Origin: Candidatus Doudnabacteria bacterium
GTDB taxonomy: Bacteria > Patescibacteriota > Doudnabacteria > UBA920
Length of the DNA stretch: 64,000 bases
Direction of reading: 5' to 3'
Assembly (NCBI GenBank): GCA_963768175.1
Contig: CAVYGQ010000001.1
Span: forward strand, 702,305 to 766,304
The notes beneath the pieces were generated by a model. The model did no database searches, was not told the origin of the DNA, and saw only the letters and a program-made list of their open reading frames with translations. The stretch's first letter is position 1, and each line of letters opens with the position of its first letter. A program made the translations under genes and the position numbers. Below, in pieces: positions 542 to 55,502 of this stretch.

Positions 542-1975
542 CTATTCGTACAGCATCCTAAACACTTCTTCAATGGTGGTTATGCCGGCCGCGGCTTTCC
601 CCGCGCCGTCCTGAAACATGGTTACCATCCCCTGCCCCACCGCCAGTTTTTGGATCTCGCCGGCCGTGGCTTTACGCAAAATGGCATCACGGATAGTCTG
701 GTCAAGCAATAATACTTCATGCACGCCTATCCGGCCGCGATAACCGCTTTGGCTGCACTTCTCGCAACCCCGACCATAGTAGAAAACTGGCAACTCGGAC
801 TTATTTTTTAAACCAAAGGCTTCAATAAGCCTCTTTGACTCTTCCAGTGACAACTTTTTTTCCGTACGGCAAAATCCGCAAATTTTCCGCAACAGGCGCT
901 GACCAATAGCCACGTTGACGGTGGAAGCAATTAAATAAGGTTCTATGTGCAAATCCAAAAGCCGGGGCAAAGTGGTGGCGGCATCGTTGGTATGCAGGGT
1001 GGAAAATAGCAAGTGGCCGGTCAGCGCGGTGTTTACGGCCAACCCCGCGGTTTCCTGGTCGCGGATTTCGCCCACCATAATAATGTTGGGGTCCTGCCGC
1101 AAAATACTGCGCAGGCCGTTGGCAAAAGTTAGGCCGGTGCGGGAATTGACCTGTATTTGATGGATGCCTTCCAAAGAATATTCTATGGGGTCTTCCACGG
1201 TGACAATGGAAACTTCTTTGTTGCTGATCATTTTAATCAGCGTATATAAAGTGGTGGTCTTACCACTTCCGGTGGGACCGGTGGCCAAAATCATGCCATA
1301 AGGTTTTTTTATGGCACGCAGGATTTTTTCCTGGTTTAATTTGGAAAAACCCAAGGCGTCCAGATTAAATTCCGCGGCCTGGTCGGAAAGCAGGCGCAAA
1401 ACCGCGTTCTCGCCGTAATAGGTCGGCACCACGGACACGCGGACGTCAACGGGAGCCGGCAAATTCTCGTCCCAGCGGAAACGGCCGTCCTGGGCCGCCT
1501 GGTGCTCGTCAATGCGCAGGCCGGCCAAAATTTTTATGCGGGAAATAATTTCCGCGTGGAGGCCTTTGGGGAAACTTTCCGCGTCCTGCAAGACGCCGTC
1601 CACGCGCAGGCGCACGTTGACTCCCTGCTTACCGGGATCTATGTGGATATCCGAAGCCCGGTGGTTGTAAGCGTTCTCTATAATCTGGTTTACTATACTT
1701 ACAATGGAAAGTTTGGGCGTGACCAAAGCCGCGCCCTCGGCAATGGCGCGGGCCGCGTGCCCGGCCGCTTTGATAATCGGCTGGGCGGCTTCGGAAACCG
1801 CTTCTATTGCGGCCGCAGCCGGATTGTGGCCGGCGGTATGGTCTTGGCTGTCAACCTTAATCTGCGGCGCGGCGGAAAAAGCCTTACCTTTAATTTTAAC
1901 CTTAATTGAGCCTTGTTCTTGCTTCCGCTGGTCTTTGCCAAAACCTAAATTTATACCTTTTAATCCAAAAAACAT
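542..1975 (-). CDS. pilB: Type IV pilus assembly / T2SS ATPase (GspE/PilB family)
   Basis: 477 aa. Walker A motif GPTGSGKTTTLY. C-terminal CxxC...CxxC tetracysteine (CGFC...CEKC). Overall secretion-ATPase architecture. Confidence 0.9.
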   Translation of the reverse strand: MFFGLKGINLGFGKDQRKQEQGSIKVKIKGKAFSAAPQIKVDSQDHTAGHNPAAAAIEAVSEAAQPIIKAAGHAARAIAEGAALVTPKLSIVSIVNQIIENAYNHRASDIHIDPGKQGVNVRLRVDGVLQDAESFPKGLHAEIISRIKILAGLRIDEHQAAQDGRFRWDENLPAPVDVRVSVVPTYYGENAVLRLLSDQAAEFNLDALGFSKLNQEKILRAIKKPYGMILATGPTGSGKTTTLYTLIKMISNKEVSIVTVEDPIEYSLEGIHQIQVNSRTGLTFANGLRSILRQDPNIIMVGEIRDQETAGLAVNTALTGHLLFSTLHTNDAATTLPRLLDLHIEPYLIASTVNVAIGQRLLRKICGFCRTEKKLSLEESKRLIEAFGLKNKSELPVFYYGRGCEKCSQSGYRGRIGVHEVLLLDQTIRDAILRKATAGEIQKLAVGQGMVTMFQDGAGKAAAGITTIEEVFRMLYE

Positions 1976-2595: not shown

Positions 2596-3210
2596 TTACC
2601 ACCGCTGAAGGCGGCGGTAAAGAGGCCCAACAATCAACAGGCCGAGGCCGAGCAGGACCAAGGTGCCAGGTTCGGGAATTTTGGGGGGTGCCGAACCCTC
2701 ATTAAAGAGCTGGCCTACCCAGCTGCACTGATTGCCTGTCTCAAGCAAGACGTAGGCGTGGCTCCAGTCGTAATTGCCGACCGAAGCCAAAACCGCCGCC
2801 ACTTGCGCCTTTTGGGCCGGAGTCAGTGGAAAATCAGCCGGATCTGTGAAATTCCAGATCTCATGCTGCAAGGACACGTCCAGCGCTTGATCGGTAGGGC
2901 TGAACCCCTGACCAAGCAGGAACATGGCCTTGAACTGATCCACAGTTAAGCCGAGCACACCGGCCAAGCCGGTCGGGTCGGCCAACGACACCACGATGAC
3001 GTTCCATTGGTTTTGCGTAATGTGGTCTTTCGCGTCAATGCACCACATCGTAATGAGTAACTCGTTAAGTTTCCCGGCAGCGTCTGCGACATAGTACGTC
3101 CCGTCGGTAAACCCTGCGGGGTAATTAACGAAGGTTAGGGTATCCGCGGCTGCAGTAGCCGGGACCAAAGCGATGATCAACAACATGAGGTACAGCAGGC
3201 ATCGTCTCAT
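2596..3210 (-). CDS. Secreted protein with C-terminal PEP-CTERM sorting signal
   Basis: 204 aa. N-terminal signal peptide MRRCLLYLMLLIIALVPATAAA. C-terminus ...PKIPEPGTLVLLGLGLLIVGPLYRRLQRW, a PEP motif plus TM helix plus basic tail. Strong SD (aaggagga) upstream. Local GC ~58% versus ~46% in the flanks. Confidence 0.6.
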   Translation of the reverse strand: MRRCLLYLMLLIIALVPATAAADTLTFVNYPAGFTDGTYYVADAAGKLNELLITMWCIDAKDHITQNQWNVIVVSLADPTGLAGVLGLTVDQFKAMFLLGQGFSPTDQALDVSLQHEIWNFTDPADFPLTPAQKAQVAAVLASVGNYDWSHAYVLLETGNQCSWVGQLFNEGSAPPKIPEPGTLVLLGLGLLIVGPLYRRLQRW

Positions 3211-6669: not shown

Positions 6670-7600
6670 TCAAGAGAGGGCAAGAGCCTAAGGGCGGGTA
6701 TACTAGGGCAGTTGGAACAAGAGTAATATACAGTTTATGATAATTAACACTCTTGTTTTATGATAGCTCTCTTAAACCAAATACCGTCGGAAGCCAAAAT
6801 TAAGCAACAATTAAGGAAAATCGTTTTCGGAAAGAATTTGGCCTGTCCCAGGTGCCGCAGCAGAAAAGTGTATTCATCAGAAAACCGTTATCGCTGCCAG
6901 AGATGCCGCAAACCCTTTGGCCTGCTGACTGGCACTTGGCTTTCAGGGATGAAATTAAACCTCAGAACTTTCTACGCTCTACTCTGGTGCTGGACTCAAA
7001 GGATTCCCGTACTTCAGTCCCAGAAACTCTGCCATGTGGGGGAAGAAGCGGTTTACCACTGGTTTAGGCAATTTCGATTGCATTTGCCCGATTTACAGCC
7101 CATTTTAACAGGCTGTGTCCAAATGGATGAAGCTTACTTTAAACAACTTTCATTACTATTGGCTAAGCAAGTCGGGAGTAAAAAACTGGCGCATCAAGTT
7201 ATTTTTAAAAATTCTGTTAACAAGACTGAAGCCTCGCAATTCATTTTTCAAAGCATAGAGCCTAACACTAAGCTGCAAACCGACGGCTCAGGCATCTACA
7301 AAAAGATTGAGCAGTGGTGGCAGGTGAAGCATAAAGTTGATATACACAAAAAATTTGAGTTTGGATTAACCTCTGAAATTGAAGGCATGTTTGGCAACCT
7401 CAGGACTTTTATCCGACGGATGTACCACCATACTACCCCAGAATACCTGCCGGAATATGTGAGTGAATTTTGCCTCAGGTTTTCCTCACCGGAAATCTTT
7501 AGTTCGCCTAATGTTTACTTATCTAAAACGCTGAAATCTGTTCCATTTGACTAGGAATACCCCTAAGGGCTAATATTCCCCCTCTTAAGATAAAGATGTT
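6670..7600 (+). mobile_element. IS1595-family insertion sequence (approximate ends)
   Basis: Single transposase ORF. Imperfect terminal inverted repeats (caagagaggg...cctaagggc at ~6672-6700 versus gcccttagg...cccctcttaag at ~7561-7600). Sits between uvrA and a GC-rich block. Confidence 0.45.
6760..7554 (+). CDS. IS1595-family (ISXO2-like) DDE transposase
   Basis: 264 aa. N-terminal zinc ribbon CPRCRS...CQRCRK. LTGTWLSGMKLNLRTFYALLWCW helix motif. ...VQMDEAYF... and ...QTDGSGIYKKI... segments match the IS1595 DDE domain layout. Confidence 0.75.
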   Translation: MIALLNQIPSEAKIKQQLRKIVFGKNLACPRCRSRKVYSSENRYRCQRCRKPFGLLTGTWLSGMKLNLRTFYALLWCWTQRIPVLQSQKLCHVGEEAVYHWFRQFRLHLPDLQPILTGCVQMDEAYFKQLSLLLAKQVGSKKLAHQVIFKNSVNKTEASQFIFQSIEPNTKLQTDGSGIYKKIEQWWQVKHKVDIHKKFEFGLTSEIEGMFGNLRTFIRRMYHHTTPEYLPEYVSEFCLRFSSPEIFSSPNVYLSKTLKSVPFD

Positions 7601-16441: not shown

Positions 16442-17614
16442 ATGGATAAAAAACAAACCATTGTCTCCGGAATCAGGGCCAGCGGCAAATTACACGTTGG
16501 CAATTACCTGGGCGCGCTTAAGCAGTTTGTAGAGCTGCAAAACGACGAAACCAAAAACTGTTATTTTTTTATCGCTGATTTGCACGGCCTAACCACCCCT
16601 TTTGAGCCAAAAGAGCTGGCCAATACGATTTTGGACGTTACGGCCAGTTACTTAGCCGCCGGGATTAATCCAGAAAAAACAACTTTCTTTTTGCAAAGCC
16701 AGGTTTTGGAACATGCCCAGCTGGCCTGGATTTTTAATTGCATCACGCCGCTTGGAGAACTTTATCGGATGACACAGTTTAAAGTTAAAGGGAACCTAAA
16801 AACAAAAATCTCTGATCGTACTCCTTCGCTTTCCAAACCAGAAACTATAGGTAATCAAATTGTTGATAATTCTGGCTATTTCGAAAAATTATCAGAAAAA
16901 TATTTTGTAGAGTTTATCGACAAAGAAGGAAATCGTTCAGAAAATAAAATTGCTTCAGGATTTATAAAAACTCTTTATGACGAACTCTCAGATACTTACA
17001 AAGTTAACGCCGGACTTTTGACTTACCCCGCCTTAATGGCCGCGGATATTTTAATGTATAAAGCAGATGCGGTACCCGTGGGCGATGACCAGGTCCAGCA
17101 CGTGGAGCTGGCAAGGGTAGTAGCCAGGAAGTTTAACCACAAATTCGGCAAAACTTTTCCGGAACCCAAAACTTTTTTAACCAAACCGTTGCGGATTATG
17201 TCCTTAACCGACCCGACCAAAAAAATGAGCAAAACCGGGGACGAGGCTCTGCTGTTGGACGATTCACCCGCGGAAATAACGCGCAAGCTTAAAAAAGCTT
17301 TAACCGCAAGCGAGGCCGGCAAAAAATCCCCGGGGGAAGAAAATCTGATGCTGCTTTTGTCCCATTTTGGGAAAACTGATGAAATTGCTCATTTTATGGA
17401 GACGCAGGCAGCCGGAACTTTAAAATACAGCGAACTTAAAGAAGCCTTAGCCAAAGATATCAGTAATTATTTTGCCGATTTTCGTGAAAAGAAAAAAGAG
17501 CTTCTGGCAAGGCCGGAATATCTGGCGCAAGTCCTGGCCGAAGGCTCGCGCAAGGCCGCGGCAGTAGCCAAAGAAACATTGTTGGAAGTCAAACAAAAAA
17601 TCGGACTGCTCTAG
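16442..17614 (+). CDS. trpS: Tryptophanyl-tRNA synthetase
   Basis: HIGH-type motif GKLHVGNYLG and KMSKT(G). 390 aa, carrying a ~60-aa insertion (KVKGNLKTKISDRTPSL...SDTYKVNAG) relative to typical bacterial TrpRS. Confidence 0.9.
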   Translation: MDKKQTIVSGIRASGKLHVGNYLGALKQFVELQNDETKNCYFFIADLHGLTTPFEPKELANTILDVTASYLAAGINPEKTTFFLQSQVLEHAQLAWIFNCITPLGELYRMTQFKVKGNLKTKISDRTPSLSKPETIGNQIVDNSGYFEKLSEKYFVEFIDKEGNRSENKIASGFIKTLYDELSDTYKVNAGLLTYPALMAADILMYKADAVPVGDDQVQHVELARVVARKFNHKFGKTFPEPKTFLTKPLRIMSLTDPTKKMSKTGDEALLLDDSPAEITRKLKKALTASEAGKKSPGEENLMLLLSHFGKTDEIAHFMETQAAGTLKYSELKEALAKDISNYFADFREKKKELLARPEYLAQVLAEGSRKAAAVAKETLLEVKQKIGLL

Positions 17615-24270: not shown

Positions 24271-27200
24271 TTATTGCGAAAAAAACTGGCACATCTGGCG
24301 GAGAGTTACCACACTCCCTTTTTGTAAATTCCCGTCAGCCGCGTTTGCCGGCACCACGCGGGAAAAATCATTGTCTATGTGCCACGAGTTATACACCGCC
24401 ACGGACGGATAGCCGTGCAGTAAAGTTCCGTCATACCAATAGACCGTACCTTTAAAATTGACATCCAGGCCGGCCATGTGAGCGGCACGCGGATTGGAGA
24501 TGATGCTACCGAGCGGCACCTGGTTAAGCTCCGGCGCCGTGATCACTAACACTGAAGTGAACTTAAAACCCAGGCCCAAAAACACGCTGGCCGAACTAAA
24601 GCCGTGCTTGGCGCCACCGGAAATTAAAAACACCGTGGGATCAGTCGGCGACTTAACCAAGGCGCCGTCATTAGGCAACAGCAGCGGACCGGCGGGCAAA
24701 GCTTGGAAAGCTGCGGTATCTAACACCGCATCTTTGAACTCGTAACCAAACGAGTACAGCATTCCGGGATTGGTAATGCCGCGGCGCACGTTATTCTGAA
24801 TTAGATAATAAGTACCGGCATCGTTAATCAGGCACATTTTAACATAAGAGTTAGCACCGGCTGTCAGCGAGCCAGCTCCGGCAATCGGCGTCGTTACACC
24901 AGCCGCGGACGACAAATAGCCGCCGGAACTGTTTTGCGAGAAAATGGCATATGAATAAACGGTACCGTTAACCAAGCCGGTATCCAGAAATGACTGGCCG
25001 ATACCGCTATATATTTGAGTTCCGTCGGTTACGCTGGTTGGAGCGGCAGAACCAACTTTGCGCACAATCACAGTCTGAACCCAACCGTAAGTAATGGAAG
25101 GATTAATCCAAGTCAGCAAGACCTGGCCGTCGCCGGGTTGAATAACAAGGTTGGTGATTGATGAACTCGCGGGGACACCACCCCCTCCGCCGCCGCCCCC
25201 TCCGCCGCCCCCTCCGCCGCCCCCTCCGCCGCCACTGAAGGCTTGAGTAGTGGCCGATGTAGACAAAGATTGAGCCGATTCATTACCGACATTGTCATAA
25301 GCGGAAACGGTGTAAGTGTAAGTGGTGGAAGGAGAAAGACTGGTATCGGAATATGAAATCTGGGCGGTTGAGGCAATCAACGAACCTCCCCGGTAAATTT
25401 TGTAGCCGGCCAGCCCGGAAGTTATGGCGCCGGAAACTGTCGGGTCTGTACTTGCGACCCATGAAAGGTTAATCTGGCTGGAAGACACCGCGGAGGAGGA
25501 TAAACTTGTTGGGATGGATGGCGCGGTAATGTCGGGATTGGCCTGGGTGGTGGCAAAAATGGCTGAACTTTTGGCGGAAATGTTTAAAGCCGCGTCAAAA
25601 GCGGCAACAGCATAGCCATAAGCGGTTTGCGTAGTTAAGCCCGTATCCCCATAACTGTTGGTAGTCGAAGTGGCAATTTGGACAGTGGGCACACAGGACG
25701 AACCTTGGCAGCGGAATACCTGGTAACCGGCCACGCCTACGTTATCCGTGGACGCGTTCCAAGTCAAATCGATTTCGGAACCGGAAACAACCGTAGCAAA
25801 AAGGCCGGTCGGCACGGTTGGAGATTGGCTGTCGGAGGTGGAGGTGGTCAACAAGGTATAATCCGAAGAAGTGGCGAGGTTACCGGCCAGGTCGTGCGAC
25901 CTGGCCCTAAAATGGTAAGTTGTATTGGCGGACAATCCGGTAAGCGAAACCGAGTGAGAAGTAACTAAAGTATTGTCTAAAGTAGTCTGGCTACCATAAG
26001 AAGCGGTCAAGCCATAGTCAGCCTGGGAATCCGCCAACTCGTTGGTGGTCCAGGTAATAGTTGCTGTTGATGCCGAGGTTGAGGATGCGACGCCGGTTAT
26101 GACGGGAGGGGTGTTATCCACGGTCAAAGTAGCGGTGGAGGGACTGGAGACATTGCCCGCAGCGTCAATTACATAAAGCTTGTAGGCGCCGGTTGTAACG
26201 GGAGCCAAAATACTGGTGGCCGTGCCGTTGGCCGCCATAGTCATGGTGGAACCGGCCGTAAAAGTAGTGGTGCCGGAAGGCGCAAACCAAACTTGGTTGC
26301 TAGCTGTACCGGAACTGACAATGGTCACGGCGGCGCCGCTTTGCTTACTGATGCTTTGGGCAAAGACCGTATTTTGATTATTCGGAGCGGTATTATCCAC
26401 GGTAAAGGTTGTGGAAGGGCCGGCGCTTGCCGCAGTGTTTCCCGCATTGTCCGAAGCCGTGCCGGCGGCAATGGTAATACCCAAAGTGCCATCGCCGGTT
26501 ATGGAAGAAATGGTGACTGTCCGCGTAGAATTACCGTTGCCTGACACGGCAACGGTTCCGTTGGCTGTACCAGTCTTGTTTAATGTAATATTACCGTTGG
26601 CTAAAGTTACCGTGTCAGCGCTAGTATACGTTACAGTAAAAGTCACTGGTCCAGATCTTGTTAAGGAAACTGATGGGGAACCAATAGATATGGTAGGGCC
26701 GGTATTATCCACGGTAAAGGTTGTGGAAGGGCCAGCGCTTGCCGCAGTGTTTCCCGCATTGTCCGAAGCCGTGCCGGCGGCAATGGTAATACCCAAAGTG
26801 CCATCGCCGGTTATGGAAGAAATGGTGACGGTTCTAGTGGAAGTGCCCGAGCCGGAAACCGCCACTGTACCGCTGGCCGTGCCAGTCTTATTTAGGGTAA
26901 TGTTTCCCGCCACAAGCGTCACGGTATCCGCTCCGGTGTATGTGACGGTATAACTAACCGGCCCGCTGGTGGCAGTGGCGACTGACGGGGAACCGATGGA
27001 CAAAGTGGGAGCGGTGTTATCCACGGTAAAAGTCGCGCCGGAAGTCGGGGCGGAAGTTACGGGATTACCGGCCAGATCCGTACCCACAGATAAGGCCACT
27101 GTGGCCGTACCATTACCAGAGCCGATGGTATATACATACGTATAAACGGTTGAAGAAGTCTTAGCCATATTGGTCGCGCCAACGGTGTTCGCGCCGGAAA

Positions 27201-27828
27201 TGGAAATTTTCGTTACCGGCGAATCCGCCATCGGCTCCGAAAAAGTGGCGGTAATCGTCAAAGAGTTCCCGGCCTTGACCGGATTTTTTGAATAGGTAAT
27301 AGCCGCGGTTGGCGGGATAATATCCTGCACAGTAATACTGCCTGCAACCCCAATCGTGGTTACCGCGTTGGCATTTGAGTCAGCGGAAATCGTGTTGGTG
27401 AGTTGAATGGGGACGGAGGTGGCGGTAATGGAACTGGCAAGGGTAAAGGTGGCAACGGATAAAATGCCGCTGCTGATAGCGTTATTGTTAAAACCCGCGA
27501 CGATGCAACGATAATCCCCCGCGGACACCATATTACACTGGGCGCTTTTACTGGCGGCTATGGAAACAGGACCGTCGGCAACACTAACTCCACTTATTTG
27601 GGAAGTGCTATAAATAAAATCCCATTGGGTAGACGAAACATTTGTTAAAACTTGGGAAACATCTATGTTCATGTTCAAACTTACCGGACCGCCCGGCGTG
27701 GCGGTTCCGGTACCCAAAGTTAGTACCGCTTGGTTGGCCGCTAATGCGATATTTTTTAGGCCAAACCCAAAAATAACTGCTACGGCAACGGCAGCGCAAA
27801 TAATGGTTGTTTTCCTCAAATTTGGCAT
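24271..27828 (-). CDS. Giant secreted/surface protein: signal peptide, tandem ~100-aa repeats, multiple fibronectin type III domains, 21-residue poly-Gly linker, conserved C-terminal domain
   Basis: 1185 aa. FN3 signatures (LTW...Y.V.A..N.S). Two near-identical 101-aa repeats. GGGGGGGGGGGGGGGGGGGGG tract. C-terminal domain shares ...SASxFLGLGFKFxxVL... with the 29152-31887 protein. Confidence 0.8.
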   Translation of the reverse strand: MPNLRKTTIICAAVAVAVIFGFGLKNIALAANQAVLTLGTGTATPGGPVSLNMNIDVSQVLTNVSSTQWDFIYSTSQISGVSVADGPVSIAASKSAQCNMVSAGDYRCIVAGFNNNAISSGILSVATFTLASSITATSVPIQLTNTISADSNANAVTTIGVAGSITVQDIIPPTAAITYSKNPVKAGNSLTITATFSEPMADSPVTKISISGANTVGATNMAKTSSTVYTYVYTIGSGNGTATVALSVGTDLAGNPVTSAPTSGATFTVDNTAPTLSIGSPSVATATSGPVSYTVTYTGADTVTLVAGNITLNKTGTASGTVAVSGSGTSTRTVTISSITGDGTLGITIAAGTASDNAGNTAASAGPSTTFTVDNTGPTISIGSPSVSLTRSGPVTFTVTYTSADTVTLANGNITLNKTGTANGTVAVSGNGNSTRTVTISSITGDGTLGITIAAGTASDNAGNTAASAGPSTTFTVDNTAPNNQNTVFAQSISKQSGAAVTIVSSGTASNQVWFAPSGTTTFTAGSTMTMAANGTATSILAPVTTGAYKLYVIDAAGNVSSPSTATLTVDNTPPVITGVASSTSASTATITWTTNELADSQADYGLTASYGSQTTLDNTLVTSHSVSLTGLSANTTYHFRARSHDLAGNLATSSDYTLLTTSTSDSQSPTVPTGLFATVVSGSEIDLTWNASTDNVGVAGYQVFRCQGSSCVPTVQIATSTTNSYGDTGLTTQTAYGYAVAAFDAALNISAKSSAIFATTQANPDITAPSIPTSLSSSAVSSSQINLSWVASTDPTVSGAITSGLAGYKIYRGGSLIASTAQISYSDTSLSPSTTYTYTVSAYDNVGNESAQSLSTSATTQAFSGGGGGGGGGGGGGGGGGGGVPASSSITNLVIQPGDGQVLLTWINPSITYGWVQTVIVRKVGSAAPTSVTDGTQIYSGIGQSFLDTGLVNGTVYSYAIFSQNSSGGYLSSAAGVTTPIAGAGSLTAGANSYVKMCLINDAGTYYLIQNNVRRGITNPGMLYSFGYEFKDAVLDTAAFQALPAGPLLLPNDGALVKSPTDPTVFLISGGAKHGFSSASVFLGLGFKFTSVLVITAPELNQVPLGSIISNPRAAHMAGLDVNFKGTVYWYDGTLLHGYPSVAVYNSWHIDNDFSRVVPANAADGNLQKGSVVTLRQMCQFFSQ
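25186..25248. repeat. (GGN)21 triplet repeat encoding a poly-glycine tract
   Basis: ccgccgccccctccgccgcc... on the plus strand. Confidence 0.8.
26395..27005. repeat. Tandem direct repeat, 2 x ~303 bp, >95% identical, inside the surface-protein gene
   Basis: Segment ggtattatccacggtaaaggttgtggaagggcc[g/a]gcgcttgccgcagtgtttcccgc... occurs at ~26395 and ~26697. Protein repeats TFTVDNT[A/G]PT[L/I]SIGSPSV... Confidence 0.7.
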
Positions 27829-27993
27829 ATTTTTGCCTTAATCAAGCCACTAAATAGATAATCGGGCCTATCTAAACTGTTGTAATTTGTATTATATCAA
27901 GTTAAAAAAATAAGCTACTTTAATAATAATATGGCATTCTTTCTGAAAGGAGAGGCGCAAGCACACGGCCCGCGCCCCACTGCAATCCACGAC

Positions 27994-28494
27994 CTACCGT
28001 TGGGGCTGGAGTGGACGCCGATGCATCCACGCCGGCGTCCTCCGGTAGGCCGGGTTGGTAACCTGCCCACCCACCCCGAGGAGGCTTAATGCGCTTCCTT
28101 GCGGAGATGAAGCCGAGACCCCGGTGATGGAGAGCGGCACTACAGAGTAACTCTGCGGCAAAACGACTGTCAAGTCGGCCACAACCCCGTTTGCCATCGC
28201 CCCAGCGTTTAAACCACCGAGTAGGCATGTTGTCCTGCCAACCGTCGAGTCGGCAGAACAAATGACCTGCTTACCAGCTGCCAAGGCCATTGGACCCGGC
28301 GACACGGTAATCCTCACGCTCGGCGAGGTCCAGATGGTCCAGAGCAACGCTGATGGACCGCTGCTTGCGCTCAATGTCAACGGAATGACTGCCGTTGAAC
28401 CGGGTGCCGCCGTAGCAGAACCGGCAGACAAGGTTGGCACAAACAAATTAAGGTGCGCAGAGTCGGGACAGTCCACGTGCCGCAGAAAAGTCAT
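27994..28494 (-). CDS. Hypothetical Ala/Ser-rich beta-sandwich-like protein. Possibly the C-terminal part of a frameshifted gene with 28448-29017.
   Basis: 166-aa ORF overlapping the upstream ORF by 47 nt in another frame. ~58% GC. Confidence 0.3.
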   Translation of the reverse strand: MTFLRHVDCPDSAHLNLFVPTLSAGSATAAPGSTAVIPLTLSASSGPSALLWTIWTSPSVRITVSPGPMALAAGKQVICSADSTVGRTTCLLGGLNAGAMANGVVADLTVVLPQSYSVVPLSITGVSASSPQGSALSLLGVGGQVTNPAYRRTPAWMHRRPLQPQR

Positions 28495-29017
28495 ACGTTA
28501 GCGGGATCGTCACTCCGATTTCGCTCGAGTTGCGGCTCTGGGCGGAATTGTCCATCAGCTCCGCCCTAACAACATAGAACCAAGTGTCGCCTGCCGACAC
28601 ATCCTGGTCTAAATAGTTCACCCGCGCCACGGGAGAGGAGTTTAACGGGTCAACATACGGCCCGCCTGAAGTTGTGGACCTATATATGCTGTACTGACAG
28701 CAAGTCACTCCCCCATCATCACTCGAACTGTCTGTCCAAGTGAGGGCAACCTCGTGGCTCCCGTCACTCAAGATACAGTCTGACAGCCCCAAGGCAGAGT
28801 TAACAACCCTCTGCACCGTTACGGCGTTGCATACGCCAACGCCGTTGATGCTGGCCGTACATGGCAATATGACAATTGCCATGTTGATTGTCCGTTGGAC
28901 GTCAACGACGTCCACGGACCCGTACGGCAGGGCCACATCGCACGCGTTGATCTGCGCGCAAGCTGTACCACAACAGGCCGCCGCCATGAACAACAAGGCA
29001 ATCCATCTCGTTGCCAT
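28448..29017 (-). CDS. Secreted protein with dockerin-like duplicated segment and FN3 domain
   Basis: Signal peptide MATRWIALLFMAAACCGTACA. Duplicated SVDVVDVQRTINMAI / CNAVTVQRVVNSALG, dockerin-like helix pairs. FN3 LTWTD...YSIYRS...YVVRA. GC-rich. Confidence 0.45.
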   Translation of the reverse strand: MATRWIALLFMAAACCGTACAQINACDVALPYGSVDVVDVQRTINMAIVILPCTASINGVGVCNAVTVQRVVNSALGLSDCILSDGSHEVALTWTDSSSDDGGVTCCQYSIYRSTTSGGPYVDPLNSSPVARVNYLDQDVSAGDTWFYVVRAELMDNSAQSRNSSEIGVTIPLTYDFSAARGLSRLCAP

Positions 29018-29151
29018 CTCAAACCCTCCTTCAACCGATAACCTATTATACCAAGAGCCTTAAAAAACTTCAACAAACTACTTAAATACAGGCAATTTAA
29101 AATCCCGCCCCGAGCGAAGTCGAGGAGCGGGATTTGCGAATTAAATTCAAC

Positions 29152-31887
29152 TTATTGCATCCTTGAATCTCCGGAAGTCATAGCAGAAAGCATGGGCAGG
29201 CGGAAATCATAAGAGTTGGCCGAGACGATGAAGCTGGCCTGTCCGCCGTTGTTTAGGAAAGTGTTCCAGTCGGGAACCGGGATAAGTCCGCTTTGATGGA
29301 CAAAATACACGGTACTGCCGCTCTTTATCCAACTGCCCCAAGGGTGTTGGGTATATGAAGTAGTAACGGTATAGCCGGAATCAACAAGGCCAGAACTGCC
29401 AACCTGTAAAACGTTGCCGAATTTAAAACCTAAACCCAAAAAGGCGGATGCGCTGGCAAACGCGGTCTTGGTATTTTTATAAACTATGTAAACCGTAGGG
29501 CCTTCGGCAATAAGCTGGCCGTTTGAATAAGTACTCGCGCCAAGCACGTTACTGGTGCCTCCCGGATACTGCAGGCCGTTTCCACTGCCGTTGTTGTAGT
29601 TGTAGGGGTAACCGCCATTATAAGAATAGCCGCTGCCGACCGTAACATATAAGTCCGGACAAGAATTGGCATTGTTCTGGCAAATCTGTAAAGTGGAACT
29701 GCCATTGGTAATGGCGTAGATATTTATTACGCTACCGTTAAAGCTCGCGCTAACCACTCCGGGGTTGCTGTTTTGGGCAATGTAATATCCATAACCGCCG
29801 TTGCCAGAAACATTTACCGTGGCACTTTGACCAATGTTCAAACCTAAAGAATATTGACTTAAAGTAATGTTGCCGTTATTGATAAAATTAACCGTAACAT
29901 AAACTGTGGCGCACTGGCCAGAATTAATGCCGCACAAAACTATTGAGCTGCTGCCGGAAGTTTGTCCGTAAAAAGTAGCCTGGTTACCCGAAACGCTAAC
30001 GGAAACTACGTAGGAATTGCTGTTGGAAGAAACATAAATAGACGGCGCATTGTAAGCCGTAACTGCCATGCTTTGTCCCTGGTTTAAACTAATGCTGGTC
30101 TGGCTTAAAGACAGGCTGCCGGTACCGTAATAATAAGACCCGCCGCCCACGGTTACATAAAGCGTGCCACAAAAACCCAAAGCGGAACTACAAACGGTAA
30201 TATTGCTGGAACCTGTTTGGTTAGCGTACAAATTCAGCACCGTGCCAGAAATACTGGCGGAAACTGCACTGGAGTTGCTGTTGGAAGAAATATAATACGC
30301 GGTATTGTTATAAAGATAATTCGTGGAATATGCGCTGCTGTTTATGGAAACCGCCAGGCTTTGGCCAACGTACAAATTGGGATTGCCAGGGCTGAACCAT
30401 AAGTTGGTATTGGCTCCCAAAACCCCGCTTACCGTTACATATAAAGTCGCGCAGGAACTGCTATAAGAGCTCTGACAAACTATGATACTGGTGTTGCCGG
30501 AACTTAAGGCACTGACATACAAACTGTTTCCGGAAATGCTGGCCGAAGCCACGGAAGAGTTGGAATTGCTGGTAACATAATAACTGCCGTATGAATTGTT
30601 GTTGTTGTAAATGGAAACCGTGGAATTTTGACCGACACTTAAACTTAGGCTGGTCGGGCTTAAAGAAATACTGCCACCGTAATAAGACCCGCCGCTCACG
30701 GTCACATAAAGATAGCCGCAATAAGAAGAATTTTGGCAAACTGTTATAGTGCTGCTCCCTGTGCTACCCGCCAGCAAATACAGCGTACTGCCGCTAAGGC
30801 TGGCGGAAACCACGCTGGAATTGGAATTGTTAGAAATGTAAAGAGAACTGCCAAGATACGCGGCATTAACAAAAACCGTGGAACTTTGGCCCACCGCCAA
30901 ATTTACCGAACTAGGACTAAAAGTAATTGTGCCATAATTTCCGCCGCCGCCCACTGTAACGTATAAAGTGGCGCAAACGCTGCTGCTTGAGCATATGCTA
31001 ATATTTGTAGACCCGGACGCCAACCCGTAAACATTTATTTGGTTGCCGGAAACAGAAGCCGAAGCAACATAAGAATTGGAATTGTTGGAAATATAGAAGC
31101 TGTTGCTATAGCCGTAAACCGGATAATTTGCGGTTACCGAGGCACTTTGGCCGACACTTAGCCCCAAACTGGTTTGGCTCAAAGTTAATCCGCCCACGCT
31201 GCAGCCGTAATAGCCGCAGCTGCCGCCGGAAACCGTTACATATAAACTGCCGCAGGTACTGCCGCCGCTCAAACAAACAGTAATCGTATCAGATCCGGTG
31301 CCGCTACCGGTAACAGTCATTTGATAACCGCTAATGTACGCGGATGCTACTGCCGAGTTGCTATTGCTGGAAATATAAGGAGCATAGGCCGACATATTCA
31401 CGCCGCTGGAAATCGAAACCGTACCGGATTGTCCCGTACTCAAATTCAGGCTAGAAGGATTCAGGGTCAGTCCGCCCACGCTGCAGCCGTAATAGCCGCA
31501 ACCACTGCCGTAGTATCCGCTGCCGTAGTATCCGCTGCCGTTGGAATAAACCGAAACCGTGGAAGACTGCAGACCGCCGACTATCACATACATTTGGATA
31601 GGATTACTGCTGCCGTCGCTAGGCATGCTAACAACCTGGGTAAAATAACCGTTGCCGTCTGTTTGGCCAATGTTATTCACCACAGTCCATAAAGAGGTGG
31701 TTTGCCGGCTGTAAAGGTTAATTTGCGAAAAAGAATTTGCATTGCTAATGCTAATTTGCACATTGCCAGAACTTCCTCCCTGATAGCTGGCCGAAAGTAT
31801 TGGCGTAGATGCCAAAGCAGGTGTGGCAAAGCCTATAAAAAGGCTTATAAACAAGACAAAAACTAAACTTTTTGACAATTTTGTCAT
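29152..31887 (-). CDS. Large surface protein with ~9 tandem bacterial Ig-like (Big_2) domains and a conserved C-terminal domain
   Basis: 911 aa. Signal peptide. Repeated module ...L[ST]LS..SL.L..GQS..V......YISSNSNS.VASASISG..L.....GS..ITVC......C.TLYVTV (Big_2 pattern). Ser/Gly/Tyr-rich. The C-terminal ~130 aa is homologous to the C-terminus of the 24271-27828 protein. Confidence 0.8.
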   Translation of the reverse strand: MTKLSKSLVFVLFISLFIGFATPALASTPILSASYQGGSSGNVQISISNANSFSQINLYSRQTTSLWTVVNNIGQTDGNGYFTQVVSMPSDGSSNPIQMYVIVGGLQSSTVSVYSNGSGYYGSGYYGSGCGYYGCSVGGLTLNPSSLNLSTGQSGTVSISSGVNMSAYAPYISSNSNSAVASAYISGYQMTVTGSGTGSDTITVCLSGGSTCGSLYVTVSGGSCGYYGCSVGGLTLSQTSLGLSVGQSASVTANYPVYGYSNSFYISNNSNSYVASASVSGNQINVYGLASGSTNISICSSSSVCATLYVTVGGGGNYGTITFSPSSVNLAVGQSSTVFVNAAYLGSSLYISNNSNSSVVSASLSGSTLYLLAGSTGSSTITVCQNSSYCGYLYVTVSGGSYYGGSISLSPTSLSLSVGQNSTVSIYNNNNSYGSYYVTSNSNSSVASASISGNSLYVSALSSGNTSIIVCQSSYSSSCATLYVTVSGVLGANTNLWFSPGNPNLYVGQSLAVSINSSAYSTNYLYNNTAYYISSNSNSSAVSASISGTVLNLYANQTGSSNITVCSSALGFCGTLYVTVGGGSYYYGTGSLSLSQTSISLNQGQSMAVTAYNAPSIYVSSNSNSYVVSVSVSGNQATFYGQTSGSSSIVLCGINSGQCATVYVTVNFINNGNITLSQYSLGLNIGQSATVNVSGNGGYGYYIAQNSNPGVVSASFNGSVINIYAITNGSSTLQICQNNANSCPDLYVTVGSGYSYNGGYPYNYNNGSGNGLQYPGGTSNVLGASTYSNGQLIAEGPTVYIVYKNTKTAFASASAFLGLGFKFGNVLQVGSSGLVDSGYTVTTSYTQHPWGSWIKSGSTVYFVHQSGLIPVPDWNTFLNNGGQASFIVSANSYDFRLPMLSAMTSGDSRMQ

Positions 31888-32089
31888 ATATCAAAAATTT
31901 AAATTATTAATGTTGGACTTTATATTATTATCCTTTTATATTGAGTTGTCAATGTTATTTTAAAAAATATTTTTATAAAATAATTCCTCTAATAAGTCAA
32001 ATAAGTCAAATTTAAACAGCTGGATACTCTCTCACAATTAGAGAGTGCCCATCTTAATGTCTGCGTTATACGCCCCATCTGCTACCATT

Positions 32090-54296: not shown

Positions 54297-55502
54297 CTAC
54301 TGGACATGAAGCCGAAACCACGCCCGCTTACCAACCTGCAAGATATCTCCTTCGGTTGGCGTCAGGCTTTGTGCCGGGTTGGTGATTTTCGCGCCGTTCA
54401 GCGTAACCCCTCCATGTTGGAAGAGTTGCCGAAGTTCGGCACTGCTCTTTTGGCTGCCAAAGAACAGCCGCACAATACTGAGCACGGTTTGGTCTTTGGC
54501 TTCCGCGGTGACGCTGGGGATGTCTGCGGGGATTTGGCGTTGCGAGAACGTCTGGTCAAACCACTCGCGTTCTTCCCGGGCCACCTGTTTTCCGTGGTAC
54601 CGCTGGACAATGGCCACTGCTAGCCGTTTTTTGGCTTCAAGAGGGTCGGATGCGGCCAAACTCTCCAGCGCTGCCAGCTCCGTGTCCGGCACCTCCGTGT
54701 AGACTTGGAAGTAAGTCGAAATCAAGCTGTCGGGCAAGCGCATGGTTCTGCCGAATTTGTCGCGAGGCGAGTGGCCGAGGCCGATGTAGTTGTCCAAGCT
54801 CTTGCTTTGCTTGTCCCTGCCATCGATCCCGGACGTGATTCTAGTGGTCATGATAACCTGTGGCTGCTGGCCAAACTTTTCTTGGTAGAATCGCCCCAGC
54901 ATCTCGTTGAACAGCTGGTCGGAACCAATGATAGTCAAGTCAGAGCTAAGCGCGAAAGAGTTGTAGCCTTGAAGTACCGAGTAGACTAGTTCGTGCATGT
55001 AGATGTCAGAGTTCTCGGAGATGCGCCGCTGAAACATGTCGCGCGAAATCAAGCGGCTGTGAGTGACCAAGGACAATAGCTTCAGAAACTGCGCTGTCTT
55101 CATGTCCCCAAACCACTCGGAATTCCTCCTTACCTCCAACAGTTGCGAGTTGTCAAACCGCAGGACCATCTTCGCTTGCGTGATGAATTCCTTGGTATTC
55201 CGTTCGATTTCCTCGGCTGGAATGATGGGTCGTGTTTTGCTCTTCCCGGTAGGGTCGCCGATCTGCGTCGTAAAATCCCCGACCAGAAAGACAACCTTGT
55301 GCCCGAGATCTTGCAGCCTGCGCATCATCCACAAATTGACAGCGTGTCCGATGTGCAGGTACGGAGCAGTCACGTCCACACCATACTTAATGCGGAGCTT
55401 TTTGCCGCTGCGCAAGAGCGCCTTCCATTCCTCCAGAGAGAAAACCTCTTGTGTCGTTCTGGCGAATGCCAAATCTAGTTGCCTTATCTGTTGTTCGTTC
55501 AC
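54297..55502 (-). CDS. tyrS: Tyrosyl-tRNA synthetase (class I, with C-terminal S4 domain)
   Basis: PYLHIGHAVNL (HIGH), LVGDFTTQIGDPTGKS, LQGYNSFAL, IGSDQ, KQSKS/KFGRT (KMSKS region), C-terminal S4-like domain. Confidence 0.85.
   Translation of the reverse strand: MNEQQIRQLDLAFARTTQEVFSLEEWKALLRSGKKLRIKYGVDVTAPYLHIGHAVNLWMMRRLQDLGHKVVFLVGDFTTQIGDPTGKSKTRPIIPAEEIERNTKEFITQAKMVLRFDNSQLLEVRRNSEWFGDMKTAQFLKLLSLVTHSRLISRDMFQRRISENSDIYMHELVYSVLQGYNSFALSSDLTIIGSDQLFNEMLGRFYQEKFGQQPQVIMTTRITSGIDGRDKQSKSLDNYIGLGHSPRDKFGRTMRLPDSLISTYFQVYTEVPDTELAALESLAASDPLEAKKRLAVAIVQRYHGKQVAREEREWFDQTFSQRQIPADIPSVTAEAKDQTVLSIVRLFFGSQKSSAELRQLFQHGGVTLNGAKITNPAQSLTPTEGDILQVGKRAWFRLHVQ

What the first reader, a model, noticed from the sequence alone, without database searches (positions are those of the whole stretch)
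24271..31887. Two giant surface proteins sharing a conserved, unrecognised C-terminal domain, with a GC-rich dockerin-like/FN3 cassette wedged between them
- The FN3/poly-Gly protein (1185 aa) and the nine-Big_2-domain protein (911 aa) are otherwise unrelated.
- Both end in a homologous ~130-aa domain. Compare ...GTYYLIQNN...FSSASVFLGLGFKFTSVL... with ...PTVYIVYKN...FASASAFLGLGFKFGNVL...
- A shared C-terminal module on different adhesin-like proteins suggests a common anchoring, sorting or secretion determinant. There is no LPXTG and no TM segment, and it is not PEP-CTERM.
- Between the two genes lies a 1.1-kb ~58% GC segment (27994-29017) encoding a signal-peptide protein with duplicated dockerin-like segments and an FN3 domain, plus an overlapping Ala/Ser-rich beta-sandwich-like ORF. 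This hints at a cohesin-dockerin-style assembly of surface proteins.
Basis: partly seen in the sequence, partly recalled or inferred. Interest (0 to 1): 0.65.

Follow-up and report, generated by a model that had tools for sequence, protein, structure and literature searches.

The report
Wall-anchor repeat shared by surface proteins
Two large surface proteins of a small-genome, Patescibacteria-type bacterium end in the same unnamed repeat module; it is most likely a non-covalent cell-wall anchor, and the genes sit in a conserved cluster with cohesin domains and a small dockerin-like protein.

Summary
Protein A (24271-27828, minus strand) and protein B (29152-31887, minus strand) share a real C-terminal homology. 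The pairwise BLASTP E-value is 9e-8 and the profile E-value is 2e-16.

The shared region is not one ~130-aa domain. It is a tandem array of ~60-aa units, three in A and two in B. No Pfam, NCBIfam or PDB sequence matches it. A profile search nevertheless finds 4,986 protein clusters, and 99 of 117 complete three-unit modules lie at the extreme C-terminus of large secreted proteins. The AlphaFold model is confident (pLDDT 92) and matches only the repeat domains of EccB, a type VII secretion protein. Of 24 multi-unit relatives, 12 or 13 are peptidoglycan enzymes (Amidase_2, SpoIID, glucosaminidase). I read the module as a non-covalent cell-wall-binding anchor.

The GC-rich segment between the genes is not a random insert. 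It has two parts:
- A small signal-peptide protein with a dockerin-like module and an FN3 domain.
- A cohesin-domain ORF, whose family profile hits PDB cohesins at E 3e-6.

A also starts with a cohesin domain. The trio of dockerin-like/FN3 gene, cohesin protein and anchored protein recurs in at least two other Patescibacteria genomes. The dockerin likeness is only partial. Binding functions are inferred, not shown.

The parts
24271..27828 (-). Gene A, 1185 aa. Order of parts: signal peptide, cohesin domain, Ig-like domains, three FN3 domains, poly-Gly, an FN3-like domain, then the three-unit C-terminal module.
   Evidence: ORF. Pfam gives fn3, Big_12 and Pur_ac_phosph_N.
27328..27738 (-). Cohesin-type domain of A (aa 31-167), directly after the signal peptide (aa 1-30, ending ...NIALA).
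   Evidence: Pfam Cohesin E 4.9e-4, 20.7 bits, below the 24.1-bit cut-off but covering the full model. An 11-sequence family profile hits PDB cohesins 1g1k and 2vn5 at E 2.9e-6 and 4.6e-6, end to end.
25171..25236 (-). Poly-Gly linker (19 consecutive Gly, aa 866-884) ahead of the FN3-like domain (24898-25167) and the C-terminal module.
   Evidence: The same Gly-rich linker plus FN3-like domain plus module is seen in relatives (P0001, P0013, P0015 and the L004 A-like protein).
24673..24840 (-). C-terminal module of A, unit 1 (aa 997-1052). It contains Cys999.
   Evidence: hhalign unit 1 against unit 2: E 1.1e-11. Unit 1 against unit 3: E 1.6e-11.
24481..24672 (-). C-terminal module of A, unit 2 (aa 1053-1116). 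It holds the FLGLGFKF motif.
24286..24480 (-). C-terminal module of A, unit 3 (aa 1117-1181). It holds the near-invariant NSW...NDFSxVVPANxAD motif and Cys1180.
   Evidence: Invariant columns. Cys pairing.
29152..31887 (-). Gene B, 911 aa. Order of parts: signal peptide, an N-terminal domain, 7 Big_2-like repeats (29638-31476), a Gly/Tyr/Asn-rich linker, then the two-unit C-terminal module.
29173..29526 (-). C-terminal module of B: two units (aa 788-845 and 848-905) that align to units 2 and 3 of A's module.
   Evidence: hmmsearch places it on profile positions 63-180, E 2e-16. It is conserved in the syntenic L004 orthologue, including the ...GDSRLQ tail.
28448..29017 (-). 189-aa gene. Parts: signal peptide (28952-29017), a Cys-rich module with a degenerate dockerin-like loop (28772-28951), and an FN3 domain (28496-28759).
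   Evidence: Homologues P0021-P0025 end right after the FN3 domain. P0022, L004 (167 aa) and L031 (163 aa) have the same complete architecture. The module profile hits dockerins only through the ~15-residue calcium loop, best E 0.0015. The identical protein is recorded on a 949-kb contig held by NCBI among other sources.
27994..28494 (-). 166-aa ORF overlapping the end of the 189-aa gene in another frame. It encodes a cohesin-type domain (28057-28437) with no signal peptide, so it may be a decayed or truncated gene.
   Evidence: 27% identity over 132 aa to A's cohesin domain, E 2e-11. It is a member of alignment A6. It matches in position the 142-aa signal-peptide protein of L031, a weak member of the same alignment. 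No database homologues were found and the gene caller on the Logan contig did not call it.
29045..29073 (-). Promoter-like site (TTGAAG, 17 nt, TG-TATAAT) upstream of the 189-aa gene, followed by a GAAGGAGG ribosome-binding site.
   Evidence: This is a consensus match only.
29100..29135 (-). Hairpin followed by a T-rich tail just after gene B; terminator-like.
   Evidence: (inverted repeat I4).
31924..31952 (-). Promoter-like site (TTGACA, 17 nt, AATAAT; 11 of 12 matches) upstream of gene B.
   Evidence: This is a consensus match only.

Best explanation
Proposed mechanism:
- A and B are Sec-exported surface proteins. They are held on the cell by a C-terminal module made of tandem ~60-aa EccB-type repeat units, three in A and two in B.
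- The module binds the cell wall non-covalently, either to peptidoglycan or to a wall glycopolymer. It does the job that LPXTG/sortase, SLH, LysM or CWB2 domains do in other monoderm bacteria.
- In A the three units pack into one compact domain. A disulfide between the first and last strands (Cys999-Cys1180) closes it.
- A poly-Gly stretch and an FN3-like domain act as a stalk through the wall. The Ig-like and FN3 array projects outward, with a cohesin domain at the far N-terminal end.
- The small secreted protein encoded between A and B (dockerin-like module plus FN3) is the conserved neighbour of such cohesin proteins. It probably docks onto them.

What is shown: the homology, the repeat structure, the fold similarity, the distribution, the domain associations and the synteny.
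What is inferred: wall binding, the orientation of the proteins, and the cohesin-partner interaction.
For: Homology and internal repeats.

A very large family with no curated model:
- The profile search finds 4,986 50%-identity clusters at E<=1e-3 and 2,505 at E<=1e-10.
- There is no Pfam, NCBIfam or PDB sequence hit.

Structure:
- The AlphaFold model is confident, pLDDT 92.3 and pTM 0.86. Each unit has three strands plus short helices.
- The top 11 Foldseek hits in the PDB are all EccB1, EccB3 or EccB5 periplasmic domains, E 5.9e-6 to 9e-3.
- EccB1 repeats are 4-stranded sheets with 2 helices of about 55 aa. They have been proposed, without a test, to bind peptidoglycan (PMC4769845).
- A 17-unit relative scores 39.3 bits on Pfam EccB (PF05108), above the 27-bit cut-off.

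Association with wall enzymes:
- Among 24 multi-unit relatives, 11 carry SpoIID, 9 carry Amidase_2 and 1 carries Glucosaminidase.

Position in proteins:
- 99 of 117 complete three-unit modules end within 6 aa of the C-terminus. Seven sit right after the signal peptide, followed by a linker and an enzyme.
- In species-representative genomes, 30 of 31 modules end within 3 aa of the stop codon.

Cysteine pair:
- The two Cys residues occur together or not at all. In genome loci: both 3, neither 28, one only 0. The same holds in the 20-sequence alignment.

Genomes and signals:
- Several copies occur per genome, mostly in Patescibacteria MAGs.
- Signal peptides are read directly from the sequence. 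There is no LPXTG.

Cohesin and synteny:
- Cohesin-family profile against the PDB: E 2.9e-6.
- Conserved gene order in L004 and L031, and partly in L002.
Against: - Foldseek TM-scores against EccB are low (0.3 or less), because only the units superpose and not their arrangement.
- A single-unit profile did not find EccB in the PDB by sequence. A's and B's own modules do not reach Pfam EccB.
- The repeats also occur on RHS toxins and on CAP-domain proteins. So the ligand could be another cell's wall, or a different polymer.
- The window's dockerin-like loop has lost its calcium ligands.
- The 166-aa cohesin ORF has no signal peptide.
- The AlphaFold model of the cohesin domain failed, pLDDT 38.6.
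Confidence: 0.6

Rival explanations
1. The module is the business end of an adhesin. It binds the cell wall of a host or prey bacterium, not the producer's own wall, and so mediates the attachment of an episymbiotic Patescibacterium.
For: The repeats occur on RHS/YD toxins and on very large surface proteins. Cultivated Patescibacteria are described as obligate episymbionts (abstract of bioRxiv 10.1101/2024.11.25.624915, listed). A 59%-identical module sits on a contig binned as Terriglobia, which would fit gene flow between partners.
Against: Housekeeping-type peptidoglycan enzymes (Amidase_2 plus SpoIID) carry the same units. If the signal peptides are cleaved, nothing else in A or B would hold the protein on the producer. 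The cohesin domain at the opposite end looks like the distal, interacting end.
Confidence: 0.2
2. The module anchors the proteins to an S-layer or to each other. On this reading it is a protein-protein oligomerisation or lattice domain, not a glycan binder.
For: The module is compact and confidently folded, and the most conserved surface lies in unit 3. EccB repeats function inside a protein assembly (one search hits 7nps and 7np7).
Against: The variable copy number (2 to 17 units) and the fusion to wall hydrolases are typical of polymer-binding repeats. The invariant residues are Asn, Asp, Trp and His, as in sugar-binding sites. That last point is inference only.
Confidence: 0.1
3. The module is a C-terminal sorting or secretion signal that a dedicated export or processing machine recognises, by analogy with the T9SS C-terminal domain or with PEP-CTERM/exosortase.
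For: Its position is strikingly strict: 30 of 31 modules in genomes and 99 of 117 in the protein library lie at the extreme C-terminus.
Against: Seven relatives place the same module directly after the signal peptide, and others hold it in long internal arrays. It is 185 aa with a closing disulfide, and it has no hydrophobic or basic tail. No conserved processing or secretion gene recurs next to it; neighbour families shared by only 5-8 of 41 loci include IF-3-like and putative regulator genes (read by eye). The window's neighbours are housekeeping genes.
Confidence: 0.05
4. The GC-rich segment is foreign DNA or an assembly artefact unrelated to A and B.
For: The segment is 56-60% GC and GC3 0.65, against 47% for the window. 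The 189-aa protein shares the unusual ALPYG loop insertion with homologues P0021 and P0023. P0021 comes from a 56% GC contig that carries an NRPS gene, and the window protein is 49% identical to P0021.
Against: An independently built Logan contig reproduces both junctions at 99.98% identity. The same gene order occurs in L004 and L031, where the small gene is also 4-9 GC points above its locus. The gene has an AT-rich, native-looking promoter and ribosome-binding site. There are no flanking repeats. Identities to Patescibacteria and other homologues are all 41-49%. At most this is an in-place replacement by a foreign version of the same gene, and that remains unproven.
Confidence: 0.15

Closest known systems
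EccB repeat domains R1-R4 (type VII / ESX secretion core component; Pfam PF05108, TIGR03919; PDB 4kk7, 5ebc, 7nps)
   Same: Units of about 55-60 aa with a small beta-sheet plus short helices, located outside the membrane next to the wall. EccB is the only significant structural match. A weak summed Pfam match links EccB to a 17-unit relative.
   Different: EccB has an N-terminal transmembrane helix, a central core domain and exactly four repeats in a quasi-twofold arrangement, and it belongs to a type VII secretion locus. Here the units form free tandem arrays (2, 3 or up to 17) on unrelated passenger domains, with no type VII secretion context. A's and B's modules do not reach the EccB models by sequence.
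PlyCB, the cell-wall-binding subunit of streptococcal phage lysin PlyC (PDB 4F87)
   Different: It was not recovered by my Foldseek search. PlyCB works as an octameric ring, not as tandem repeats. The link is second-hand.
Non-covalent wall-anchoring modules of monoderm bacteria (SLH, LysM, CW_binding_1 or choline-binding, CW_binding_2, GW, SH3b)
   Same: Same logic: tandem repeat modules at one end of secreted proteins, shared between adhesin-like proteins and wall hydrolases, with several copies per genome.
   Different: No sequence match to any of them in Pfam or NCBIfam. The unit fold also differs.
Cellulosomal anchoring scaffoldins (cohesin modules plus a wall anchor, for example SLH-anchored scaffoldins) and their dockerin-bearing partners
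   Same: A combines a cohesin-family domain with a wall-anchor module. A small secreted protein with a dockerin-type calcium loop is encoded next to it, and this arrangement is conserved across genomes.
   Different: There are no glycoside hydrolases or carbohydrate-binding modules. The partner module has one loop-helix, not two, plus four conserved Cys, and it does not pass Pfam Dockerin_1. In this copy the loop is degenerate. The interaction is untested.
Non-cellulosomal cohesin- and dockerin-like modules (surveyed by Peer et al. 2009; recalled from my own knowledge, and the phrase occurs in papers listed)
   Same: Cohesin and dockerin-like modules in organisms that have no cellulosome, often on surface proteins of unknown role.
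   Different: I found no paper that describes a conserved cluster of dockerin-like/FN3 gene, cohesin protein and wall-anchored protein in Patescibacteria.

Membership tests
EccB (PF05108 / TIGR03919) | Sequence match to the family model above its curated cut-off | tested here: not met
   A's and B's C-terminal modules give no EccB hit even at E<=10. Only the 17-unit relative P0026 reaches 39.3 bits against a 27-bit cut-off, by summing units with no single significant stretch. On TIGR03919 it scores 40 bits, far below the 154-bit cut-off.
EccB (PF05108 / TIGR03919) | Fold of the repeat unit: a small sheet plus two helices, about 55 aa | tested here: met
   The top 11 Foldseek hits in the PDB are all EccB1, EccB3 or EccB5, E 5.9e-6 to 9e-3 and probability 0.75-1.0. 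The secondary structure of the model agrees. TM-scores are low because the arrangement of the units differs.
EccB (PF05108 / TIGR03919) | Architecture (N-terminal transmembrane helix, central core domain, four repeats) and a type VII secretion gene neighbourhood | tested here: not met
   A and B have cleavable-looking signal peptides and unrelated passenger domains. The neighbours are rpsF-ssb-rpsR, EF-P, glutamate dehydrogenase, EamA and HtrA.
Known wall anchors (SLH, LysM, choline-binding CW_binding_1, CW_binding_2, SH3b, PG_binding) | Pfam or NCBIfam model match | tested here: not met
   No such family is listed for A, B or the isolated modules at E up to 10.
LPXTG/sortase substrates; PEP-CTERM; T9SS C-terminal domain | A C-terminal sorting motif (LPXTG plus a hydrophobic, basic tail; PEP plus a transmembrane segment and basic residues; or a Por secretion-tail model) | tested here: not met
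   A regular-expression search finds no LPXTG-like motif. The tails are ...RQMCQFFSQ and ...GDSRMQ. No model hits.
Cohesin (PF00963) | Full-length sequence similarity to cohesin modules | tested here: met
   A alone scores Pfam E 4.9e-4 and 20.7 bits, below the 24.1-bit cut-off, but covers model positions 3-139 of 139. The 11-sequence family profile, which includes A and the 166-aa ORF, has cohesins as its top 8 PDB hits. The best E-values are 2.9e-6 and 4.6e-6, aligned end to end.
Cohesin (PF00963) | Nine-stranded beta-sandwich fold | tested here: inconclusive
   An AlphaFold run on a 2-sequence alignment gave pLDDT 38.6, which is unusable.
Cohesin (PF00963) | Binds a dockerin partner | not testable with these tools
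   The only support is conserved adjacency to a dockerin-like gene.
Dockerin type I (PF00404) | Two duplicated ~22-residue segments, each a calcium-binding loop plus a helix, and a model match above cut-off | tested here: not met
   The window protein has no Pfam hit. Homologues P0022, P0024 and P0025 match half of the model below cut-off, at E 0.0013-0.12. The module profile hits PDB dockerins only through one ~15-residue loop, best E 0.0015. The window's loop reads DVALPYGSVDVVDV where relatives have DLNxDGxVNxxDV.
Bacterial Ig-like group 2 (Big_2, PF02368) array in B | Model match and repeat count | tested here: met
   Big_2 E 1.2e-8, above its cut-off. There are 7 repeats of 84-94 aa, each ending in YVTV, not nine.

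The most novel reading that the evidence does not exclude
The EccB-type ~60-aa repeat is the main wall-anchoring device for the surface proteins of Patescibacteria, and it has not been named. In this lineage it is combined with a minimal cohesin/dockerin-like docking system: a small dockerin-like/FN3 protein, cohesin-tipped stalks and wall-anchored proteins. The system would assemble an exchangeable surface layer used for contact with host cells. Parts of it would be traded with soil Acidobacteria; the hints are the Terriglobia-binned copy and the GC-rich version of the small gene.
Probability: 0.15. Interest if true: 0.75.

Novelty: new variant of a known kind. Interest (0 to 1): 0.55.

Why it matters
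- Patescibacteria make up a large share of bacterial diversity, and the cultivated ones live attached to other cells. How they hold and organise their large surface proteins is largely unknown.
- This locus points to one testable answer: a widespread repeat family (about 5,000 clusters at 50% identity) that neither Pfam nor NCBIfam models. The repeat probably tethers adhesin-like proteins, wall hydrolases and toxins to the wall.
- It also gives EccB, a type VII secretion protein whose periplasmic repeats have no assigned function, thousands of free-standing relatives whose contexts point to wall binding.
- The conserved cohesin/dockerin-like trio offers a small, tractable pair of proteins for testing non-cellulosomal cohesin function.

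Tried and rejected
Searches that found nothing or failed:
- Pfam, NCBIfam and PDB sequence searches with the modules of A and B found nothing meaningful.
- A 70-sequence single-unit profile against the PDB found nothing. So there is no direct sequence link to EccB.
- phmmer of the 17-unit protein against the PDB found nothing.
- BFVD returned only unannotated actinophage proteins.
- The word-index homologue search with A's cohesin domain found nothing.
- The AlphaFold model of the cohesin domain failed.
- The exact-sequence look-up of protein A found no record.
- Literature searches for 'EccB-like' or 'PlyCB-like', and for cohesin/dockerin in the candidate phyla radiation, found no description of this module or cluster.

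Readings I considered and rejected:
- The 189-aa and 166-aa ORFs as one frameshifted gene. All homologues of the first stop right after the FN3 domain, and L031 has a separate small gene in the same position. The missing signal peptide of the 166-aa ORF stays unexplained, and there is a TTTT run in the overlap.
- The GC-rich segment as a misassembly or random insertion.
- A conserved sortase or secretion partner next to module-bearing genes. None recurs.
Full report
**Setting**

The region holds four ORFs on the minus strand:
- B: 31887 to 29152, 911 aa.
- A 189-aa ORF: 29017 to 28448.
- A 166-aa ORF: 28494 to 27994. It overlaps the end of the 189-aa ORF in another frame.
- A: 27828 to 24271, 1185 aa.

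The neighbours are housekeeping genes: rpsF-ssb-rpsR, EF-P, glutamate dehydrogenase, an EamA transporter, HtrA, UvrA and UvrC, RNase J and YchF. The identical 189-aa protein is recorded on a 949-kb contig held by NCBI among other sources. The closest related loci come from metagenome-assembled genomes (MAGs) labelled Candidatus Doudnabacteria or Patescibacteria. The source is therefore most likely a small-genome Patescibacterium.

A and B align over 82 C-terminal residues at 37% identity, E 9e-8. A's last 193 aa have 19 homologues at 51-61% identity. These are attached to different upstream domains. A profile built from them hits B's C-terminus at E 2e-16 and hits nothing else in the window. 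Neither protein has an LPXTG-like motif or a hydrophobic tail. Pfam confirms the FN3 domains in A and Big_2 in B. I count 7 Big_2-like repeats in B, not nine.

**What the shared region is**

It is a tandem repeat, not a single domain. A's module splits into three ~60-aa units that match each other in profile-profile comparison, with probability 96-97% and E 1e-9 to 1e-11. B has two units, which align to A's units 2 and 3. The unit consensus across the wider family is DGxLxK......VYxIExGxKRxxxSxxxFxxxGYxWxxIxxVxxxxLxxYxxG.

No Pfam, NCBIfam or PDB sequence matches the module. An exhaustive profile search of 1.84 billion cluster representatives nevertheless finds 4,986 proteins at E<=1e-3, 2,505 at E<=1e-10 and 391 at E<=1e-30.

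Among the best 150 hits, 117 contain a near-complete three-unit module:
- 99 end within 6 residues of the protein's C-terminus. These proteins have a median length of 876 aa and reach 2,197 aa.
- 7 place the module directly after the signal peptide, followed by a Ser/Thr/Pro or Gly linker and an enzyme-like passenger domain.
- 11 have roughly 10-55 more residues after the module.
- Separately, 26 of the 150 hits carry arrays of 3 to 17 matched stretches.

In species-representative genomes, 30 of 31 full modules end within 3 residues of the stop codon. Several genomes hold two to four copies, sometimes in adjacent genes.

**Structure**

AlphaFold2 with the 20-sequence alignment gives a confident model, pLDDT 92.3 and pTM 0.86. 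Each unit is three strands followed by short helices. Foldseek against the PDB returns only EccB1, EccB3 and EccB5 periplasmic domains as significant hits. These are the top 11, with E 5.9e-6 to 9e-3. TM-scores are low because only the units correspond, not their arrangement.

The EccB1 structure paper describes four ~55-aa repeat domains, each a 4-stranded sheet with two helices. It notes a weak similarity of repeat 1 to the wall-binding phage protein PlyCB. It suggests peptidoglycan binding and states that this is untested (PMC4769845). At the sequence level, a 17-unit relative passes Pfam EccB by summed score, 39.3 bits against a 27-bit cut-off. A single-unit profile does not find EccB in the PDB. 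The relationship is therefore at the level of the unit fold, not family membership.

One detail supports a closed, extracytoplasmic domain. A has one Cys at the start of unit 1 and one at the end of unit 3 (Cys999 and Cys1180). Across relatives, the two cysteines are either both present or both absent. In genome loci the counts are both 3, neither 28, one only 0. The same holds in the alignment of database homologues.

**Function**

Of the 24 multi-unit proteins I fetched, 11 carry SpoIID, 9 carry Amidase_2 and 1 carries a glucosaminidase. A typical layout is signal peptide, amidase, 6-8 units, then SpoIID. The others carry CAP domains, RHS toxin domains or long Ig-type arrays.

Several features are the signature of a wall-binding repeat:
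- Sharing between wall hydrolases and adhesin-like proteins.
- Variable copy number.
- Placement at either end of the protein.
- Several copies per genome.

They are not the signature of a sorting signal. No sortase or secretion gene recurs beside these genes (families read by eye) or lies next to the locus.

My best explanation, at confidence about 0.6, is a non-covalent cell-wall anchor. The conserved unit of Gly-rich linker, FN3-like domain and module (seen in A, P0001, P0013, P0015 and the L004 orthologue) would act as a stalk through the wall. The main rival is that the module binds a host's wall instead of the producer's own. My data cannot separate the two.

**The segment between A and B**

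Its high GC is real: 56% and 60%, with GC3 0.65, against 47% for the window. But it is not an unrelated insert.

The 189-aa gene:
- It is complete: a signal peptide, a 60-aa four-Cys module, and an FN3 domain.
- Its homologues all stop right after the FN3 domain.
- It has a promoter-like site and a good ribosome-binding site in AT-rich DNA.

The 166-aa ORF:
- It is homologous to A's own N-terminal domain, 27% identity over 132 aa, E 2e-11.
- That domain scores Pfam Cohesin E 4.9e-4 over the full model.
- An 11-sequence alignment of this domain family hits solved cohesins as its top eight matches. The best E-values are 2.9e-6 and 4.6e-6, aligned end to end.

**Conserved synteny**

Locus L004 comes from a Ca. 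Doudnabacteria MAG. It shares the YchF, RpsF, SSB and EF-P neighbours with the window. It carries, in the same order:
1. A B-like gene with the two-unit module.
2. A 167-aa dockerin-like/FN3 gene.
3. A 661-aa protein that starts with the cohesin domain.
4. An A-like protein with two cohesin domains, poly-Gly, the FN3-like domain and the three-unit module.

L031 (41% GC) carries a 163-aa dockerin-like/FN3 gene, a 142-aa signal-peptide protein that aligns weakly with the cohesin family (15% identity to A's domain), a 933-aa cohesin protein, and a 566-aa module protein with two cohesin domains. L002 has the cohesin protein next to the A-like protein.

An independently assembled Logan contig reproduces the window's junctions at 99.98% identity. 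No flanking repeats mark an insertion.

**Limits of the dockerin reading**

- Homologues with the loop DLNxDGxVNxxDV match half of Pfam Dockerin_1 below its cut-off, at E 0.0013-0.12.
- The module profile hits PDB dockerins only through that ~15-residue loop, best E 0.0015.
- There is one loop, not two.
- In the window copy the loop reads DVALPYGSVDVVDV.
- That odd insertion is shared with P0021 and P0023. P0021 comes from a 56% GC contig that carries an NRPS gene.
- Together with the raised GC3, this hints at replacement by a foreign version. But identities to all homologues are similar, at 41-49%. I hold that idea at low confidence.
- The 166-aa ORF has no signal peptide, and the gene caller on the Logan contig did not call it. 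It may be decaying.

**Comparison with known systems**

- It works like the non-covalent anchors of monoderm bacteria (SLH, LysM, CWB2, GW), but it matches none of them.
- Its unit fold is that of the EccB repeats, but it lacks the EccB architecture and the type VII secretion context.
- The layout of cohesin, anchor and small dockerin-like partner resembles an anchoring scaffoldin. It has no cellulosomal enzymes and only a half-dockerin.
- I found no paper that describes the module or the cluster.

I rate it a new variant of a known kind, with interest 0.55. It is a large unmodelled family with a plausible and directly testable role in a poorly understood lineage, but it is not a new principle, and the function is still inferred.

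Noticed in passing
window 2596-3210 (- strand): A 204-aa protein with a signal peptide and a canonical PEP-CTERM tail (PEPGTLVLLGLGLLIVGPLYRRLQRW). It scores 23.5 bits on Pfam PF07589, above the 20.7-bit cut-off. This is unexpected in a Patescibacteria-type genome. I did not look for an exosortase.
   Followed up: partly
L005 5017-6558 (contig CAWGKI010000037.1, labelled Terriglobia MAG, locus GC 58%): A 513-aa protein with a signal peptide, Ig-like repeats and the three-unit module including the Cys pair. The module is 59% identical to A's. It sits beside a 63% GC pyruvate kinase gene. This is either horizontal transfer between Patescibacteria and Acidobacteria or a binning error.
   Followed up: partly
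window 6760-7554 (+ strand): An IS1595-family transposase (DDE_Tnp_IS1595 plus a zinc ribbon), lying between the uvrA and uvrC genes.
   Followed up: no
window 16442-17614 (+), 54297-55502 (-), 58256-59314 (-): Three ORFs match the class I Trp/Tyr tRNA synthetase family. The third match is weak (E 1.9e-10), and that ORF overlaps the neighbouring glycosyl transferase family 3 ORF.
   Followed up: no
window 27828-24271, protein A aa ~263-475: Two nearly identical ~104-aa Ig-like repeats. The FTVDNT motif falls at aa 267, 371 and 475. This suggests a recent internal duplication.
   Followed up: no
window 28448-28497 (- strand): The overlap between the 189-aa and 166-aa ORFs contains a TTTT run. 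The cohesin ORF has no signal peptide, whereas its positional counterparts in L031 and L002 have one. This could be an indel, sequence decay or a truncation.
   Followed up: partly
proteins P0027 and P0173: Two RHS/YD-repeat toxin-like giants, of 3254 and 2471 aa, each carry 11 of the same ~60-aa units by my unit count. The unit is therefore also used on contact-dependent toxin-type proteins.
   Followed up: no
window 542-1975 (- strand): A PilB/T2SSE-type ATPase, probably part of a type IV pilus system. Type IV pili are described as well conserved in Patescibacteria and predicted to aid symbiotic interactions (abstract of bioRxiv 10.1101/2024.11.25.624915, listed).
   Followed up: no
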